Source: Mobula birostris
Lineage: Eukaryota
DNA: 64,000 nucleotides
NCBI RefSeq assembly: GCF_030028105.1
Contig: NC_092375.1
Coordinates: 34,199,130 to 34,263,129 of the forward strand
Reading direction: 5' to 3'
Position numbers: made by a program
Shown here: piece after piece, positions 25,301 through 31,300 of the stretch
How positions within the stretch are numbered: position 1 is the stretch's first letter
How the letters are laid out: each line of letters opens with the position of its first letter

Positions 25301-28300
25301 CATACACTTTCCAACATTGTATTTCATTTGCCACTTCTTTCCCCATTTCCCTACTAAAGTCTCTCTGCAGGCTCTCTGTTTCCTCAACACTACCCACTCC
25401 TCCACCTATTTTTGTATACTGTAATCGGCACATTTAACCACAAATCCATTAATCCCATAGTCCAAATCATTGACATACATCGTAAAAAGCAGCAGTTCCG
25501 ACACCGAATTCTCTGGAACTCCACTGGTAACCGACAGCCAGCCAGAATAGCATCCCTTTATTCCCACTCTCTGTTTTCTGCCGATCAGCCAACGCTCCAC
25601 CCATACTAGTAACTTACCTATAACTCCATGGGCTCTTATCTTGCTAAGCAGCCTCATGTGCGACACCTTGTCAAAGGCCTTCTGAAAATCGAAGTACACC
25701 ACATCTACTACATCTCCTTCATCTTTCCTCAAAAAAATGCAGTAGTTTAGTCAGCCAGGATTTTCCTTTCAGGAAACCATGCTGGCTTTGGCCTATCTTG
25801 TCATGTGCCTCCAGGTATTTGGTTATCTCATCCCTAACATTCGATTCCAACAACTTTCCAACCACTGATGTCAGGCTAATAGGTCTATAGTTTCCTTTCT
25901 GCTGCCTCCCACCTTTCTTAAATAGTGGAATAACATTTGCAATTTTCCAGTCACCTGGGACATTGCCAGAATCTATTAATTCTTGAAAGATCATTGTTAA
26001 TGCCTCTGCAATCTCTCTAGCTACTTCCTTCAGAACCCAAGGGTGCATTCCATTAGGTCCAGATTTATCCACCCTCAGACCATTAAGCTTCCTGAGCAAC
26101 TTCTCAGTCGTAATTTTCATTGCACATACTTCACTTCCCTGACACTCTTGAATGTCCAGCATACTGCAGATGTCTTCCACTGTGAAGACTGATGCAAAAT
26201 ATGCATTCAGTTCCTCTGCCATCTCTGCGTCTCTCATTACAATATCTCCAACGTTATTTTCTATTGGTCCTTTATCTACCCTCAACTCTCTTTTACCCGT
26301 TATATACTTAAAAAAGCTTTTAGTATCTTCTTTGATATTAGATGCCAGCTTCATTTCATAATTCATCTTTTCCTTCCTATTGACCTTCTTAGTTTCCTTC
26401 TGCAAGTTTTTAAAAGCTTCCCAATCCTCTACCTTTTATGAGTTTGTATTTTAAGGCAAGATTTTGGTGAATGATGATTGCCAGTTGATTGTCCCTGTGT
26501 AAGCAACCAGATTGAGTTAAACTGCTGCAGAATCCTGTAATATGTTGGATTGTTTTGGTTTCTCTTGGCATTTTCTGCACATTCAATGTGCATGCTTGAT
26601 TCTTATTAGTCCTCCCAAAGAGCATCAACTTGCAATGAATTCTATTTGCATTTGTTCTATCTATCTTACTACATCATCAATATCATCCTATAGCCTATGA
26701 CTGGCCTGCTTACTATTAACAATGCAATTACCATACAACTTCAAACTTACTAATCTTACTTCCAACATTCATATCCAAAATCTTTAATGTATGTAACAAA
26801 CAATAATTACTCCCTGTAGCACACCATTGTTCTCAGGGTTTCAGTAACAAGAGCAACTCTCCACTATCATAAGAATCTTGGTGAATTGGTTTATTACTGT
26901 TACGTGTACCAAGATACAGAGAAAAGCTTATCATGCTTACTGTTCACACCGACCATTCCATTACTCAGTGTGTTGAGATACAACAAGGTAAAACAATAAC
27001 AGAATTCAGAATAATGTGCAACAGCTACAGAGAGAGTGTAGTGCAGGTAAACAATAAGGTGAAAAATCATAACAAGGCAGATTTTGAGATCTGGAGTCTA
27101 TTTTATTGCACTAGGGAACCATCAATAATCTTATAACAGCAGGACAGAAACTGTCCTTGAGCCTGGTGGTACATGCTTTCAGGCTTTTGTATGTTTGCTC
27201 AATGGCGGAGAGGAGAAAAGAGCTTGCCCAGGTCAGGAGGGGACAGATTATGCTGGCTGCTTTACCAAGGCAGCAAGAAATGTAGATAAGTATCCTTGGA
27301 AGGGAGATTTCCATGATGTGCTGAGCTGTGTCTGCAAATCTCCCATGTTTTAAATTATTTTGTTATTTGTAATATGAAATATACAATTACAAGCACTAAG
27401 CTGCACATTCCACTTGAAAACACACATTTTAGAAGGCAACTGATTTGCAGTAAATAGGAGAGTAATTCTTTGTTGTAAATATGTACAAAATTAATTATTG
27501 TTGAGCCTTAAAAACATTAAATGGAACTGAATGCATTATTCAAAACAATGACATCATTAAAATAATCTTCTGCAGCAGCAAAAAAAATCAATAGAATCAG
27601 AATTTTTCAATTCATCTGCACCCACATAATTAAATGATTGATATGATGCCAAATTTGGAACTTCTTGTTGCAAAGGAGGACTGAGATAAACTCTGTAATC
27701 TATACGTTCATATATCCAATAAATTAATTGCAGAACTGCCTTTATCGTAATTACAAGCACTCTATTGTTCAATTAAGATTAAATGACATTGGATTGTTTA
27801 AACAAATCAAGCCAGAGATAATAAAGGCTTTTCACCCTCAGTGAAATAGCGTGCCAGAACGGAAAACTGACCACATTTTGATTAAATCTCATGATAGAGT
27901 GACTCGATGGTCTGGTACTATTTTGGAAAATGGAAGAAGGAATTATTCTTATGCAAATGGAAAAAGCAAAACGACTTAAAGAATTCAACTATATTTTCAA
28001 TGAAAAAGGCCAACTGAGACACATCGAAACGAACCAACCATTTGTTTTCAAGCAGCACAATGCAATGAATTTGGACCATGAGTGGTACACTGCCTTCGGA
28101 ACCATTTTAGCCGAGTACATATATGAACTATTAGAGAAGGGATGTGGATTGAAACGACTCTACGTTCCTGAAGATGCCGCAGAGGATGAGCCTAAAAGTT
28201 TTTGTTTCATGAGCGAAGGTGCTCTAAATGCTCCTTCAAAGTTAATTGTTTTCGTCCAAGATCGCGGGGTTACGCGGGCTGGTGCATGGTCCCAACAATT

Positions 28301-31300
28301 GATTGTGCACGATTGTCTGGACACGGGCACACAAATCCCCTTCATTAAACGAGCTCTAAGCGAGCAATATGAGGTCATGGTATTAAATCCCAACGACAAC
28401 TTCCTGGCAATCGAGACGGGCCATTCCGCAAATGCGGAATGTCCTCAAACTGAACACAAGGTTGAAAAGCTAAAAAGGGGGGTTGAAAGTCATGAACAGC
28501 ATATATTGTACATTTGGGACCACTTCCTATCCGAATGTGCTCCCATGAGTGTGGCGTTCGTTGTTCACGGCTATGGTGGCTTGGCGTTTGTGAGTCTGTT
28601 AACTGAACGTTCAGAGGTGATGAACAAAGTATATACCGTGGCGTTCATAAATTCTAATCACGATGTAGATCATCAGGATGTTGGCCCAGCGGAACGGGAC
28701 TGGATCGCAAAGAACTGCCGTAAATGGTTACTGAGCAACAAGCCTCTGGACAAGCCCGTCAGCTCTATGAGGGCCGACTGTCCACAAGTTTCGGCAGGCA
28801 CCGAAAACCACGATTTGGCGCCTGCATCTTGCTTGCACCCTATTTTCAAGTATTTGAAGAAAGTTTCAAATACACAGAAAACTAACCAATTCACTAGGTC
28901 GCCAATTGTTACAAGACGTTCAAGCAAGGAAAAACCAAAAAGAACATCTGACAGTAATTAGCAACCCAGAGTAGCTTGTCTAAAATATCGACTGATGTTC
29001 TCCACACATACACTAACACGTTTTCAGCTGCCGTGTTAACACTTTGCCTTGTAATGACAAGTAGAATTGTTTGGTTATTTAATGAATCATTTTTGGCAAT
29101 TAACAATGTTGTGATGCGTGTGGTCTATTGCTGTGCCTGGCTGGCTGGGTCGTACTAAACTCTGCTTTAACTTTGAAAGAATTTGGTTTTCTGAGGCCAT
29201 TCGCGACTATTCAAGAATGTAAAGCTTCCGAGAAATAACATTGCGTTAGTATTTTTCTCTTAAGGAAGTTTGCTTTCGAGCCTGAAAATTTGATATTTCG
29301 GGGAACATTTCCCGTTCCTTTCTATAATCGCTGGAACTAAAAGGTAAGGTGTTCGTCGAACGAGGAAGTAAAGACTGTACATTTCACCTTTTATTGCCAA
29401 TAATACCGTGTAAAGCCCAAACAGCAAGCGACCATCGACACTGGTTGTTTCCGAATATAATTGGCGAACTGCGTTTCAACCTCCTTTTCACGCTTCGAAT
29501 GGAGACCTCAACTTTTGGATCTTATACTTGCAGACATCCCACCCTGCAAAAACTCATTTCAGGGAGGTAGCGCCATCAATTTGCGGGAGACTTCCGGCAG
29601 AGGTGGGATGACTGCAATAGAGTAGCTCCTTAGCAGCTGGCCAGCTAGTTTAAAAAACGTTAGCTATGCTAATGAACGAATGACACCTGTTAAACTCACC
29701 TCAACATGTCTTTTACAGTCTTAACCCACCATGGGCAATAGAAGTCATTGTTGCTAACAGTGCAGCGAGCAACATTGTCATTATTTCGACCCTATTAGGC
29801 AGGGGTACACTTTAGGGTAGTCTGGGGTGACGTACGTTTTATATTTTTTGGAACACTCTGCCATGGCGCGCCCTCGCTCGTGCACTCTCGCTTGCTTTCT
29901 CTCGCTCAAAAAAATTGATTTCCGTGATATCGTATATGATTTGCGGGCATCAGGAAGCCACTATTAAAATGCGGGAGACTCCCGGAAGTTCCGGGAGAGG
30001 TGGGATGTTTGTACTTGCTGTGTTTGCAACTGCAATGCAGGGAGATGGATAATAAACCCATTCTTCACAACTTCCTATATTTAACAGTACTTTTTTTCTG
30101 CTCCTGACAAATCTACGTTTTATTTCGGGCTTGGGCTGAGTTGACTGATACTCGGCCACTGTGCCACACAGCAATTGTTGAGTCAATGTGTGGGCTTTAT
30201 TGAAGGCCTGTCGGTGAGGAAAGCGTGCAGCACGAAAGGAAGGTCGCGTAAGATTTTTCTTCAAGGTTGTCCACCATCTATTAAAGATGCAGTAAAGGCA
30301 GTTAATGAAATTGTGAGATATTTAGAGATACAGCACGGTAACAGACCCTTCTGGCCCCACGAACCATCGCTGCTCAATTACACCCATGTAACCAATTTAC
30401 CAACAATACGTACATCTTTGGAATGTCGGAGGAAACCACGGGGTTACGGAGTAAACGTACAACCTCCTTACAGCCGACGGTGGAATTGAACCCCGGTCTC
30501 TGGCGCAGTAATAGCGTTATGCTACCGTGTTGGGGCTGGGGGGCAGTTGATGTTTCGGGCCAAGACCCTTTATCAGAACGAGTTTATTCCTCCGCATAGA
30601 TGCTGCCTGACTTGCTGAATTTCTCCAACAGTTTGTGTGTTTACTCACGGTTCCCAGCACCTGCAGAATCTTTGTGTTTATGGTGGGGTACCCCTGACAC
30701 CTGCCTGCAGGAAATGTCTAACAGTAGCTCCTCTCAGACCACGTGATTTTATTGGAGCACACAGAAGGCAGAGAGTGTTATAGGAATTTCAGAGAGGCAG
30801 TTAAACCAAAGGTTCAGCCAGATAAGTGATTCAATACTGCAGTCCACGGTAGCTGACCCCATCTCAAACAAGTTGGCTGTTTCGGAAACCATTGAGAGCT
30901 GACTATTCAGAAAATGACAGCAACAACCAGATCAAGGTCAGCATAACAGGCTTGGTTGTGGAGCAGGGTAGGTCAAGGAGCAGGCAAGCAACATTGATGG
31001 GTTAATTGTCTGGTTAGGGGTTTATCTTAAGCCAGGGGCGAGACCCTGAAATAGTGTGCTGTTATCCCTGGTGTCAGGATCAAAAAGGATATCTCAGAAA
31101 GGATGTATTCTCCTTGGAGAGTCCAGAGGAGGTTCATGATGATTCCAGAAATGAAGGGGTTAACATATGTGGACTGTTTGGCAGCTTTGGACCTGTACTC
31201 ACTGAAATTTGGAAGAATGCGCAGGGATCTCATTGAAACCTACAAAATGCTGAAAGGTCTAAATAGGGTGAATGTGGAGAGGATGTTTCCTATGGTTGGG

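What the first reader, a model, noticed from the sequence alone, without database searches (positions are those of the whole stretch)
27930..28961. Intact intronless FAM172B: probable ancient retrogene with a dismantled alpha/beta-hydrolase triad
Seen: a 343-aa uninterrupted ORF with HGYGG at 28566-28580, FINSNH, GTENHD and C-terminal ...RTSDSN. Established knowledge (recalled): FAM172A/ARB2A is a multi-exon Arb2-domain, Argonaute-associated regulator with AHSYGG at the nucleophile elbow, LTDSVH, a long basic/acidic insert and C-terminal HEEL; human FAM172BP next to TRMT10C is a pseudogene. Inference: this is a retrocopy older than the shark/bony-fish split that remains functional here. It has Ser to Gly and Asp to Asn at putative catalytic positions, a much shorter insert and no KDEL-like tail, so it may be a differently localised non-catalytic scaffold whose function is barely studied.
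Basis: partly seen in the sequence, partly recalled or inferred. Interest (0 to 1): 0.7.

Follow-up and report, generated by a model that had tools for sequence, protein, structure and literature searches.

The report
Stingray FAM172B: ancient dead-hydrolase paralogue
This is the intact stingray copy of FAM172B, an old and little-studied sister gene of the Argonaute-linked regulator FAM172A that has kept its fold in most jawed-vertebrate groups sampled but has lost the key active-site residues.

Summary
It is a strong Arb2-domain match (Pfam E 5.6e-51).

It is the orthologue of the already annotated "putative protein FAM172B/ARB2BP", 90% identical to Hypanus sabinus. TRMT10C lies 13 kb downstream. 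The window is from a ray, not from human.

In a careful tree, FAM172B is one clade (100/100) holding chimaera, sharks, rays, ray-finned fishes, coelacanth and tetrapods. It is sister to FAM172A, with invertebrate homologues outside. So the copy is older than crown jawed vertebrates.

Ser-to-Gly at the nucleophile elbow is clade-wide: 143 of 144 informative B sequences, against Ser in 40 of 40 A and outgroup sequences. Asp-to-Asn is mostly confined to cartilaginous fishes, and whether that residue was catalytic is unresolved.

B lacks A's NLS loop, its KDEL-like tail and its hydrophobic N-terminus. It evolves 5-7 times faster than A.

Retrogene origin is plausible but not shown. dN/dS and expression in this species could not be tested.

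The parts
27930..28961 (+). Complete single-exon coding sequence of FAM172B/ARB2B (343 aa plus stop)
   Evidence: ORF. (Arb2 PF22749, E 5.6e-51). (90% identity to Hypanus sabinus FAM172B over 100% of the query). (sister to Hypanus, 100/100, inside the B clade).
28257..28268 (+). Codons for Q110-D111-R112-G113, the turn after the strand at residues 105-109. It corresponds to the HGSG oxyanion-type turn of FAM172A and invertebrate homologues. Gly111 to Asp is fixed in B.
   Evidence: position 111 is Asp in 143 of 145 informative B sequences and Gly in 33 of 33 A and 7 of 7 outgroups; one of only 4 positions fixed differently; strand 105-109 precedes it.
28401..28493 (+). Loop at residues 158-188 (31 aa), at the site of the 60-66-aa CK2-NLS loop of FAM172A. 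It has no bipartite NLS pattern.
   Evidence: Searches give loop lengths: outgroups 17-19, A 60-66, B median 36. The bipartite pattern occurs in the loop of 24 of 32 A, 0 of 114 B and 0 of 7 outgroups. (PMC10205598, passages) describes the function of the A loop; pLDDT of 68-70 in this stretch.
28566..28580 (+). Codons for H213-G214-Y215-G216-G217, the nucleophile elbow (strand, turn, helix) with Gly in place of the nucleophile Ser
   Evidence: strand 208-213, then helix 216-226. Gly in 143 of 144 informative B; Ser in 40 of 40 A and outgroups; 2 state changes on a tree built without these columns; the elbow aligns with GHSLGG of the esterase SABP2, but the match is marginal (E 0.054).
28644..28661 (+). 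Codons for F239-I240-N241-S242-N243-H244 (TDSVH in FAM172A). Asn241 replaces an Asp. S242 and H244 are conserved in both paralogues.
   Evidence: position 241 in B is D 124, N 17, A 1; in A and outgroups it is D in 40 of 40. S242 and H244 are at least 95% conserved in both groups. Asp in 109 of 111 distant representatives.
28749..28751 (+). Codon for D274 (in PLD), in the loop after the strand at residues 263-267. This is the canonical topological place for the catalytic acid. It is retained in the window protein.
   Evidence: topology. A has D in 33 of 33, outgroups D 6 and G 1, and B has D 68, N 65, G 9. Asp in 78 of 107 distant representatives.
28797..28823 (+). Codons for G290-T-E-N-H294-D-L-A297-P298, the His loop after the last core strand (286-288). 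His294 is retained here. A297 and P298 are B-specific fixed changes (T and S in A and outgroups).
   Evidence: position 294 is H in 40 of 40 A and outgroups; in B it is H 71, Y 58 and 12 others; 297 and 298 are fixed differently. (topology).
41941..43260 (+). Neighbouring uninterrupted TRMT10C (MRPP1)-like open frame, 13 kb downstream on the same strand. This is context only (synteny marker) and not part of the gene.
   Evidence: 439-aa open frame. (tRNA_m1G_MT, E 1.1e-34). (E 1.1e-120 to solved TRMT10C chains, against about 1e-20 to TRMT10A-type chains).

Best explanation
The ORF is the ray orthologue of FAM172B (ARB2B). This paralogue of FAM172A (ARB2A) arose after the split from the sampled invertebrates and before the last common ancestor of living jawed vertebrates, and its reading frame is intact in the 147 named species models examined.

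Shown here:
- It has an Arb2-type, alpha/beta-hydrolase-like fold.
- The ancestral family, from sponge to vertebrate FAM172A, carries a fully conserved hydrolase-type set: an HG-type turn, an A-H-S-x-G-G elbow, two Asp candidates and a His.
- On the stem of the B clade the nucleophile Ser became Gly and the turn Gly became Asp. Afterwards the remaining catalytic-type positions (241, 274, 294) drifted independently in different lineages.
- B lacks the hydrophobic N-terminus, the K/HDEL-like tail and the bipartite-NLS loop of FAM172A.
- B evolves 5-7 times faster than A but keeps 33 core positions at 95% or more.

Inferred:
- It works as a non-catalytic binding or scaffold module (a pseudoenzyme). 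It keeps the shape of the former substrate pocket (H213, Y215, G216, G217, S242 and H244 stay conserved).
- It sits in the cytosol or nucleus rather than following the ER-type route suggested by FAM172A's end signals.
- It cannot do FAM172A's NLS-loop-dependent AGO2 import.
- The intronless coding sequence, which reads through two junctions at which FAM172A isoforms break and starts near the start of A's short signal-less isoform, is most simply explained by retroposition of a FAM172A mRNA. This step is not proven.
For: Identity. Pfam Arb2, E 5.6e-51. 90% identity to the named Hypanus sabinus FAM172B, with a graded series down to mammals at 45-47%. TRMT10C is 13 kb downstream.

Age.
- Careful IQ-TREE on 59 named rows (38 of the 147 named B, 14 of the 33 named A, all 7 outgroups): B 100/100, A 90/85, invertebrates apart 99/97. 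The major groups within B are recovered: chondrichthyans 100/99, ray-finned fishes 100/100, tetrapods 100/97.
- The same three groups appear with 182 named rows after removing the motif and loop columns: B 100*, A 94, outgroups 97*.

Active site.
- One search counts on 147 B, 33 A and 7 outgroups. Position 214: B has G 143, S 1, gap 3; A and outgroups have S in 40 of 40. Position 111: B has D 143, N 1, G 1, gap 2; A and outgroups have G in 40 of 40. Position 294: B has H 71, Y 58 and 12 others; A and outgroups have H in 40 of 40. Position 274: B has D 68, N 65, G 9; A has D in 33 of 33.
- Minimum state changes on the tree are 2, 2, 6, 10 and 15 for positions 214, 111, 241, 274 and 294.
- Only 4 positions in the whole protein are fixed differently at 90% or more: 111, 214, 297 and 298. 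All lie on the oxyanion turn, the elbow or the His loop.
- In 112 distant non-B representatives: G111 in 111 of 112, S214 in 108 of 110, H294 in 103 of 104.

Fold. AlphaFold2 model with pLDDT 88.5 and pTM 0.86, with a strand-turn-helix at the elbow. The top 5 Foldseek PDB hits are the Hda1 and Clr3 Arb2 structures (E 4.9e-8 to 1.6e-6), followed by true alpha/beta-hydrolases; 36 hits have E of 1e-3 or lower. The profile hits Clr3 (5ikk) at E 4.6e-5.

Lost signals. K/HDEL-like tail: 0 of 147 B, against 22 of 33 A by a strict pattern. Hydrophobic N-terminus: 2 of 133 B, 17 of 31 A, 4 of 7 outgroups; the window protein scores -0.11. Bipartite NLS in the loop: 0 of 114 B against 24 of 32 A. The function of that loop in A comes from passages of PMC10205598.

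Constraint. B/A path-length ratios are 5.1-7.2 in 8 of 8 matched comparisons. 33 positions are at least 95% conserved in both groups.

Gene structure.
- One ORF.
- A stingray and a bat FAM172A isoform lack the identical 73-residue block, and other isoforms start at an internal Met. The window ORF is continuous across both junctions.
- The longer N-terminus of the Hypanus model maps to contiguous upstream DNA, which here is in another frame and closed by stops. So the conserved start is the ATG at 27930 and no intron is implied.

Transcription elsewhere. A turkey RNA-seq table lists 'putative protein FAM172B' as differentially expressed in muscle (one passage seen).
Against: - No transcript or protein evidence for this species could be obtained.
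- No codon-based dN/dS: no orthologous DNA was available, so purifying selection is inferred only from intact frames and site conservation.
- The window protein still has H213, S242, H244, D274 and H294, so a residual or altered activity is not excluded.
- The catalytic acid is not assigned. Family-wide conservation favours D241 (109 of 111). Canonical topology and the relaxation in B favour D274. No model coordinates were available to settle it.
- TM-scores to the solved Arb2 domains are modest (0.44-0.48 on the query).
- Against retroposition: there is no poly(A) remnant or target-site duplication (none is expected after this much time). The exon structure of FAM172A was only inferred from isoform blocks and from recall. 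The gene structures of other FAM172B genes were not seen, and several carry 'isoform X1/X2' names with differing N-termini. By recalled chronology, the time window of the duplication also fits the vertebrate whole-genome duplications.
- No lamprey, hagfish, tunicate or amphioxus sequence was among the named rows, so the lower age bound rests on echinoderms.
Confidence: 0.75

Rival explanations
1. The gene identity and the pseudoenzyme reading are the same, but the copy is not a retrocopy. FAM172B would be a whole-genome-duplication (or segmental) duplicate of FAM172A that later lost its coding introns.
For: The duplication falls between the echinoderm split and crown jawed vertebrates, which by recalled chronology is also the window of the 1R/2R duplications. 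No retroposition hallmarks are left. B's loop (median 36 aa) is neither A's 60-66 nor the invertebrate 17-19, so the state of the source gene at the time of copying is unclear. Some B models have variable N-termini and isoform names, which may mean extra 5' exons.
Against: Complete loss of all coding introns is rarer than retroposition (established knowledge, recalled). The ORF reads through at least two junctions where FAM172A isoforms break. It also starts near the start of A's short, signal-less isoform, as a 5'-truncated or alternative-transcript retrocopy would. B has a long stem and a 5-7-fold faster rate, the kind of asymmetry often reported for retrocopies (recalled).
Confidence: 0.25
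2. FAM172B is still an enzyme. It would use a different nucleophile or mechanism built from the residues that remain conserved around the pocket (H213, S242, H244, and here D274 and H294).
For: H213, Y215, G216, G217, S242 and H244 are at least 95% conserved in B as well as in A and outgroups. That shows continuing constraint on the pocket. The window protein keeps D274 and H294.
Against: The four B-defining substitutions all hit canonical catalytic elements. After them, positions 274 and 294 drifted in many lineages: 10 and 15 changes, His294 in only 71 of 141 informative B sequences, and Tyr in 58, most of them birds and reptiles by the motif table. Drift of that kind is expected when catalysis has stopped. 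An Asp in the oxyanion turn would be expected to disrupt the oxyanion hole (inference from general alpha/beta-hydrolase knowledge, recalled).
Confidence: 0.1
3. The ORF is a recent, lineage-specific retrocopy of FAM172A in rays, or a decaying copy whose frame is open by chance.
For: Only the lack of introns.
Against: The window protein sits inside batoids, inside chondrichthyans, inside a 100/100 B clade that spans all the main jawed-vertebrate lineages. It is 43% identical to shark FAM172A but 90% identical to Hypanus FAM172B. The chance of an open frame of this length is about 1.9e-8.
Confidence: 0.01

Closest known systems
FAM172A / ARB2A (cotranscriptional regulator; CHARGE-syndrome-associated, AGO2-binding)
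   Same: Same Arb2 domain along its whole length, 42-46% identity to the window protein. Sister clade in the tree. 33 core positions shared at 95% or more, including H213, Y215, G216, G217, S242 and H244. Both have a C-terminal TR-S/R-S stretch.
   Different: A keeps Ser214, Gly111, Asp241, Asp274 and His294 in 33 of 33 sequences. A has a 60-66-aa loop with a bipartite NLS pattern in 24 of 32, which passages of PMC10205598 tie to AGO2 binding (E229) and nuclear import. A has a hydrophobic N-terminus and a K/HDEL-like tail. Its annotated isoforms differ by whole blocks. It evolves 5-7 times more slowly.
Arb2 domains of the class II histone deacetylases Hda1 (S. cerevisiae, 5j8j and 6z6o) and Clr3 (S. 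pombe, 5ikk)
   Same: These are the best structural matches to the model (E 4.9e-8 to 1.6e-6) and the best profile match in the PDB (5ikk, E 4.6e-5). They are alpha/beta-hydrolase-like without a catalytic triad (PMC11878206, passages). In the alignment Clr3 also has Gly at the elbow position.
   Different: The yeast domains are C-terminal appendages of deacetylases, at only 12-15% identity and TM 0.44-0.48 on the query. FAM172B is a stand-alone protein whose direct ancestors still had the complete catalytic set. Its inactivation is therefore a separate, datable event.
Active alpha/beta-hydrolases (e.g. kynurenine formamidase 4e14, esterases, antigen 85C, SABP2 1y7h)
   Same: Same core fold order of strands and helices. 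They are structural hits at E 1e-4 to 1e-3. The elbow aligns with SABP2's GHSLGG, though marginally (E 0.054).
   Different: There is no nucleophile at the elbow (Gly214), Asp instead of Gly in the oxyanion-type turn, and Asn at residue 241.
Cholinesterase-like adhesion proteins such as neuroligins (recalled, not tested here)
   Same: An alpha/beta-hydrolase fold kept as a binding module after replacement of the nucleophile Ser by Gly (recalled from general knowledge).
   Different: An unrelated sub-family that is extracellular and membrane-anchored. No sequence or structure comparison was made here.

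Membership tests
Arb2 domain / FAM172 family | Significant match to the Pfam Arb2 model over its full length | tested here: met
   PF22749, 173.8 bits (cut-off 26.8), profile positions 3-260 of 260. PF09757, 28.7 bits (cut-off 26.6).
Arb2 domain / FAM172 family | Fold resembles solved Arb2 domains | tested here: met
   a confident model (pLDDT 88.5). The top 5 PDB hits are Hda1 and Clr3 Arb2 structures, with modest TM-scores (0.44-0.48 on the query).
FAM172B (ARB2B) orthologue group | Falls inside the clade of named FAM172B/ARB2BP proteins and not in FAM172A | tested here: met
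   B clade 100/100, window sister to Hypanus 100/100; the same result with motif columns removed (100*).
FAM172B (ARB2B) orthologue group | Diagnostic substitutions G111D, S214G, T297A and S298P | tested here: met
   the window has D111, G214, A297 and P298.
FAM172B (ARB2B) orthologue group | Conserved linkage to TRMT10C | tested here: inconclusive
The linkage is present in the window.
Catalytically active serine alpha/beta-hydrolase | Nucleophile Ser in the small-x-Ser-x-small elbow | tested here: not met
   Gly214.
Catalytically active serine alpha/beta-hydrolase | Oxyanion-hole turn (HG-type) after the third core strand | tested here: not met
   Q110-D111 where A and outgroups have H/Q-G. 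That this turn forms the oxyanion hole is inferred from topology and was not measured.
Catalytically active serine alpha/beta-hydrolase | Catalytic acid | tested here: inconclusive
   There are two candidates. Residue 241 is Asn here, and residue 274 is Asp here. Searches point in different directions, and no coordinates were available.
Catalytically active serine alpha/beta-hydrolase | Catalytic His after the last core strand | tested here: met
   His294 is present in the window. It is only 71 of 141 informative sequences across B.
Processed retrogene | Coding sequence without introns | tested here: met
   one ORF that aligns end to end with its orthologues.
Processed retrogene | Parent gene has introns at positions that the copy reads through | tested here: inconclusive
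   A isoforms from a ray and a bat lack the same 73-residue block, and others start at an internal Met. The ORF is continuous there. No genomic exon map of FAM172A was seen; its multi-exon structure is otherwise recalled.
Processed retrogene | Poly(A) remnant and target-site duplications | tested here: not met
   no A-rich tract within 3 kb downstream, and no repeat pair brackets the ORF (the only pair lying wholly upstream is a 13-nt match). Such marks are not expected to survive a copy older than crown jawed vertebrates.
Processed retrogene | Single-exon state shared by orthologues in other lineages | not testable with these tools
FAM172A-type AGO2 import factor | Loop with classical bipartite NLS and CK2 motif, including the AGO2-binding Glu | tested here: not met
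   the window has a 31-aa loop with no bipartite pattern (0 of 114 B). The definition comes from PMC10205598 passages.

The most novel reading that the evidence does not exclude
FAM172B is a pseudoenzyme partner of the FAM172A system, found in most jawed-vertebrate groups sampled. On this reading, FAM172A-type Arb2 proteins are genuine serine hydrolases from sponge to human, carrying ER-type targeting signals at both ends, even though the Arb2 family is currently classed as triad-less. FAM172B would be their catalytically dead, differently localised copy. It would keep the substrate- or partner-binding pocket and act as a sensor, decoy or regulator of the same ligand or of Argonaute-family partners. 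Its pattern of decay works like a natural mutagenesis experiment that marks the true active site of FAM172A.
Probability: 0.3. Interest if true: 0.6.

Novelty: new member of a known kind. Interest (0 to 1): 0.4.

Why it matters
The gene itself is not new. Annotation pipelines already name it in well over a hundred species, and the exact protein is in public databases. What seems not to be in print is its evolutionary and biochemical reading. A full-text search for FAM172B, FAM172BP and ARB2BP found 11 papers, and by their titles and abstracts none is about the gene. Supplements could not be read.

Three points are useful:
1. FAM172A is a disease-linked protein whose mechanism is still debated. 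It belongs to a lineage in which a complete hydrolase-type residue set is conserved from sponge to mammals. Yet the Arb2 family is described as lacking a triad (PMC11878206). That makes "is FAM172A an enzyme?" a sharp, testable question.
2. FAM172B supplies a natural negative control. The only four positions fixed differently from A all lie on active-site elements.
3. B lacks exactly the loop through which A is reported to bind and import AGO2. Any shared function must therefore go through the Arb2 core.

For genome annotation, many ray-finned-fish FAM172B genes are labelled "FAM172A homolog".

Tried and rejected
- Self-association. One complex-prediction job on two copies of the window protein gave "no answer" (score 0.00). 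It is evidence neither for nor against.
Names were obtained instead from two homologue searches.
- Hydrolase literature on FAM172A. The 2018 PNAS paper (doi 10.1073/pnas.1715378115, PMC5789929) is not held. My recollection that it mentions an esterase-like G-x-S-x-G motif is unverified. A search for 'FAM172A' plus 'esterase' found 2 papers that by title and abstract are not about the point. Term searches for hydrolase, esterase and Arb2 in PMC11584794 and PMC9304217 found nothing relevant.
- Retroposition scars. No A-rich tract and no flanking direct repeats.
- Poly(A) signal. AATAAA occurs 102 times in the window. The first + strand copy after the stop is at 30051, which is uninformative.
- Splice acceptor upstream of the ATG. 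A regex scan found none. By eye, 'ttttcaccctcag' at about 27829-27841 looks acceptor-like, but that is no evidence.
- First NLS regex. It undercounted because of greedy matching (2 of 32 A) and was corrected (24 of 32).
- My interim conclusion that D274 rather than D241 was the catalytic acid (after) was withdrawn, because distant representatives showed D241 to be the better conserved.
- dN/dS.
- A second structure prediction for FAM172A was not run, because no coordinates are returned for superposition.

Full report
**1. Observation**

The window holds one ATG-to-stop ORF at 27930-28961 on the + strand, 343 codons. All quoted motifs are present:
- FINSNH is residues 239-244.
- GTENHD is residues 290-295.
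- The protein ends ...KRTSDSN.

The open frame begins only nine codons upstream, after an in-frame TGA at 27900. With stop trinucleotides at a frequency of 0.0506, 343 open codons have a chance probability of about 1.9e-8. The window has no N. No spliced model was needed, because the whole protein comes from one exon.

**2. Source and setting**

- The window is not human. The protein is in the public set at 100% identity, and its closest named relative is 'putative protein FAM172B' of the stingray Hypanus sabinus (90% identity, 100% coverage). Sawfish follows at 75%, then other rays, skates and sharks at 63-70%.
- The surroundings are full of LINE-type reverse-transcriptase and endonuclease fragments.
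- An uninterrupted TRMT10C/MRPP1-like frame lies 13 kb downstream on the same strand. It scores E 1.1e-120 to solved TRMT10C chains, against about 1e-20 for TRMT10A-type enzymes. I did not check the human locus.

**3. Family and fold**

- Pfam Arb2 (PF22749) matches at E 5.6e-51 over the full profile.
- An AlphaFold2 model built from an alignment of 59 named sequences is confident (pLDDT 88.5, pTM 0.86). It has the alpha/beta-hydrolase order of strands and helices. Gly214 sits in a strand-turn-helix elbow (strand 208-213, helix 216-226). Q110-D111 follow strand 105-109. Asn241 follows strand 234-240. Asp274 follows strand 263-267. His294 follows strand 286-288.
- The five best Foldseek matches in the PDB are the Arb2 structures of yeast Hda1 and Clr3 (E 4.9e-8 to 1.6e-6, TM 0.44-0.48 on the query). 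True hydrolases follow: kynurenine formamidase, FrsA, esterases and antigen 85C. 36 hits have E of 1e-3 or lower.
- A profile of the family finds Clr3 (5ikk) at E 4.6e-5 and, marginally (E 0.054), the elbow of the esterase SABP2.

**4. Age and orthology**

- The representative nearest to vertebrates is a nemertean ARB2A-like protein. That search also returned chiton, sea spider, spider, sea star, sea cucumber and sponge homologues.
- The fish-like B group comprises paddlefish, gar, bowfin and many teleosts (75 hits).

A careful IQ-TREE was run on 59 named rows: 38 of 147 named B, 14 of 33 named A, and all 7 outgroups. It gives B 100/100, A 90/85, and the invertebrates apart at 99/97. Inside B, chondrichthyans (100/99), ray-finned fishes (100/100) and tetrapods (100/97) are each one clade, with coelacanth separate. 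The window is sister to Hypanus (100/100) within batoids (quick version; overview with 116 unnamed representatives).

FAM172B therefore predates crown jawed vertebrates and postdates the split from the sampled invertebrates. No cyclostome, tunicate or amphioxus row was available.

**5. Active site**

Named-only counts (147 B, 33 A, 7 outgroups):

| Position | FAM172B | FAM172A | Outgroups |
|---|---|---|---|
| 214 (elbow) | G 143, S 1 (Aplochiton), gap 3 | S 33 | S 7 |
| 111 (turn) | D 143, N 1, G 1, gap 2 | G 33 | G 7 |
| 241 | D 124, N 17, A 1, gap 5 | D 33 | D 7 |
| 274 | D 68, N 65, G 9, gap 5 | D 33 | D 6, G 1 |
| 294 | H 71, Y 58, 12 others, gap 6 | H 33 | H 7 |

- On a 182-row tree built without these columns and without the loop, B is still one clade (100*). 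The minimum numbers of changes are 2, 2, 6, 10 and 15 for positions 214, 111, 241, 274 and 294.
- Scanning all columns, only four positions are fixed differently at 90% or more in each group: G111D, S214G, T297A and S298P. All lie on the oxyanion-type turn, the elbow or the His loop. 27 positions that are at least 95% conserved in A and outgroups fall below 60% in B, among them 274, 294 and the stretch 114-127 next to the turn. 33 positions stay at 95% or more in both groups, including H213, Y215, G216, G217, S242 and H244.
- In 112 distant non-B representatives, G111 is present in 111 of 112, S214 in 108 of 110, D241 in 109 of 111, D274 in 78 of 107 and H294 in 103 of 104.

This is the pattern of a pseudoenzyme. 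An ancestral, strongly conserved hydrolase-type set was disabled once, on the B stem, and the leftovers then drifted.

The Asp-to-Asn at 241 is found mainly in cartilaginous fishes (all 13 of them, plus 2 birds and 2 teleosts). Which Asp was the catalytic acid stays open. Family-wide conservation favours 241. Canonical topology (acid after the seventh core strand; recalled general knowledge) and the relaxation in B favour 274.

**6. Other differences from FAM172A**

- Loop between NPNDN and EEH. It is 17-19 residues in the 7 invertebrates, 60-66 in 32 A sequences, and has a median of 36 (range 6-49) in 114 B sequences. The window has 31. A further 33 B sequences have 5 residues or fewer, or a gap; the milkfish Chanos, for example, has 4.
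- Bipartite NLS. The classical pattern occurs in the loop of 24 of 32 A, 0 of 114 B and 0 of 7 outgroups. Passages of PMC10205598 describe this 'CK2-NLS loop' of FAM172A as carrying the NLS and Glu229 needed for AGO2 binding and import, and report FAM172A homodimers.
- C-terminal tail. A strict x-[DE]-E-[LIF] tail is present in 22 of 33 A. Ten more end in close variants such as xEDL, and one does not. It is present in 3 of 7 outgroups (KEEL, HEEL, KDEL; a fourth ends RIEL) and in 0 of 147 B.
- Hydrophobic N-terminus. Present in 17 of 31 A, 4 of 7 outgroups and 2 of 133 B. The window protein scores -0.11.

So the ER-type end signals look ancestral and were lost in B. The long NLS loop is specific to vertebrate A.

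**7. Constraint**

- B/A path-length ratios are 5.1-7.2 in all 8 matched comparisons. For example, chimaera to sawshark is 0.758 against 0.105, with amino-acid identity of 65.5% against 90.2%.
- B is thus much less constrained than A. Even so, it kept an open frame in 147 named species models and a conserved core.
- dN/dS could not be computed because no orthologous DNA was available.
- Transcription could not be tested for this ray. A turkey muscle RNA-seq table lists 'putative protein FAM172B' as differentially expressed (one passage seen).

**8. Retrogene question**

Shown:
- The coding sequence is one exon here.
- The longer N-terminus of the Hypanus model corresponds to contiguous upstream DNA. 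In the window that DNA is in another frame and closed by stops, so the conserved start is the ATG at 27930.
- A stingray and a bat FAM172A isoform lack the identical 73-residue block, and other isoforms start at an internal Met. This implies conserved exon boundaries in A that the B ORF reads through. B starts near that internal Met.

Not shown:
- Exon maps of A, or of B in other lineages.
- Any poly(A) remnant or target-site duplication.
- The position of the locus relative to A's.

Retroposition is the most economical reading, at roughly 0.6-0.7. An ohnolog that lost its introns is not excluded.

**9. Literature**

- A full-text search for FAM172B, FAM172BP and ARB2BP found 11 papers (listing seen; one read for its passage). 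By their titles and abstracts none is about the gene.
- PMC11878206 (passages) classes Arb2 (PF09757) as alpha/beta-hydrolase-like without a triad, citing 5ikk.
- The 2018 PNAS paper on FAM172A is not held. Supplements were closed and may hold expression or retrogene lists that bear on this gene.

**10. Verdict**

The gene is already annotated, so it is not a new kind. It needs correction on Asp-to-Asn and on the direction of loop evolution. It remains unproven on retroposition, selection and expression.

The most useful new points are:
- the second fixed active-site change (G111D);
- the confinement of all fixed A/B differences to active-site elements;
- the conservation of the full catalytic set in FAM172A-type proteins from sponge to mammals.

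A self-association prediction gave no verdict and is not used as evidence.

Noticed in passing
window 41941-43260 (+): An uninterrupted 439-codon stop-to-stop frame encodes a TRMT10C/MRPP1 orthologue (E 1.1e-120 to solved TRMT10C chains). Like FAM172B it has no coding intron here, so two intronless genes sit side by side.
   Followed up: partly
one search hit list (no window coordinates): All 75 hits to a teleost FAM172B come from non-neoteleost fishes: paddlefish, gar, bowfin, elopomorphs, osteoglossomorphs, clupeiforms, otophysans, salmoniforms, esociforms, a smelt and a galaxiid. No percomorph appears, although percomorph FAM172A is abundant. This suggests loss of FAM172B in Neoteleostei, but absence from a word-seeded search is weak evidence.
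   Followed up: no
one search hit list: Many ray-finned-fish FAM172B orthologues are named 'cotranscriptional regulator FAM172A/ARB2A homolog' by NCBI, although they fall in the B clade. This looks like a systematic naming error.
   Followed up: partly
P0176 (Aplochiton taeniatus FAM172B): This is the only B sequence with Ser at the elbow (AHSHGG). It sits on a long branch (0.84), and its H244 and H294 equivalents are changed (D and S). It looks like a back-mutation in a degenerating or fast-evolving copy rather than a retained enzyme.
   Followed up: partly
P0342 (Hemitrygon akajei) and P0296 (Rhynchonycteris naso) FAM172A isoforms: A ray and a bat isoform of FAM172A skip exactly the same 73 residues. 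The block includes a core strand and the whole CK2-NLS loop. Either this is a conserved alternative splice form without the NLS, or it is a recurrent annotation artefact.
   Followed up: no
window 31827-32414 (+) and 44286-44660 (+): Two open frames share a 48-residue stretch at 65% identity (HFNSTSHS...LEEQH...SLQPD; E 4e-18). The first frame has no Pfam match. They are probably two copies of one interspersed repeat family.
   Followed up: partly
window 2296-4599 (-), 25719-26435 (-), 48548-49015 (-), 61031-62930 (-), 63586-63999 (+): These are reverse-transcriptase and endonuclease fragments of LINE-type retrotransposons. The frame at 61031-62260 is open for 409 codons (RVT_1, E 2.6e-27). 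One fragment ends 1.5 kb upstream of the FAM172B start.
   Followed up: partly
window 11592-11954 (-) and 16243-16674 (+): These open frames contain runs of HTHTHT... and SLSLSL..., meaning they read through dinucleotide microsatellites. They are not genes.
   Followed up: no
window 28914-28943 (C-terminal ...SPIVTRRSSK...): A short T-R-[SR]-S stretch near the C-terminus is kept in both FAM172A and FAM172B although its surroundings vary (T328 and R329 are at least 90% conserved). It may be a phosphorylation or binding motif. The model's confidence is low there (pLDDT 50-63).
   Followed up: no
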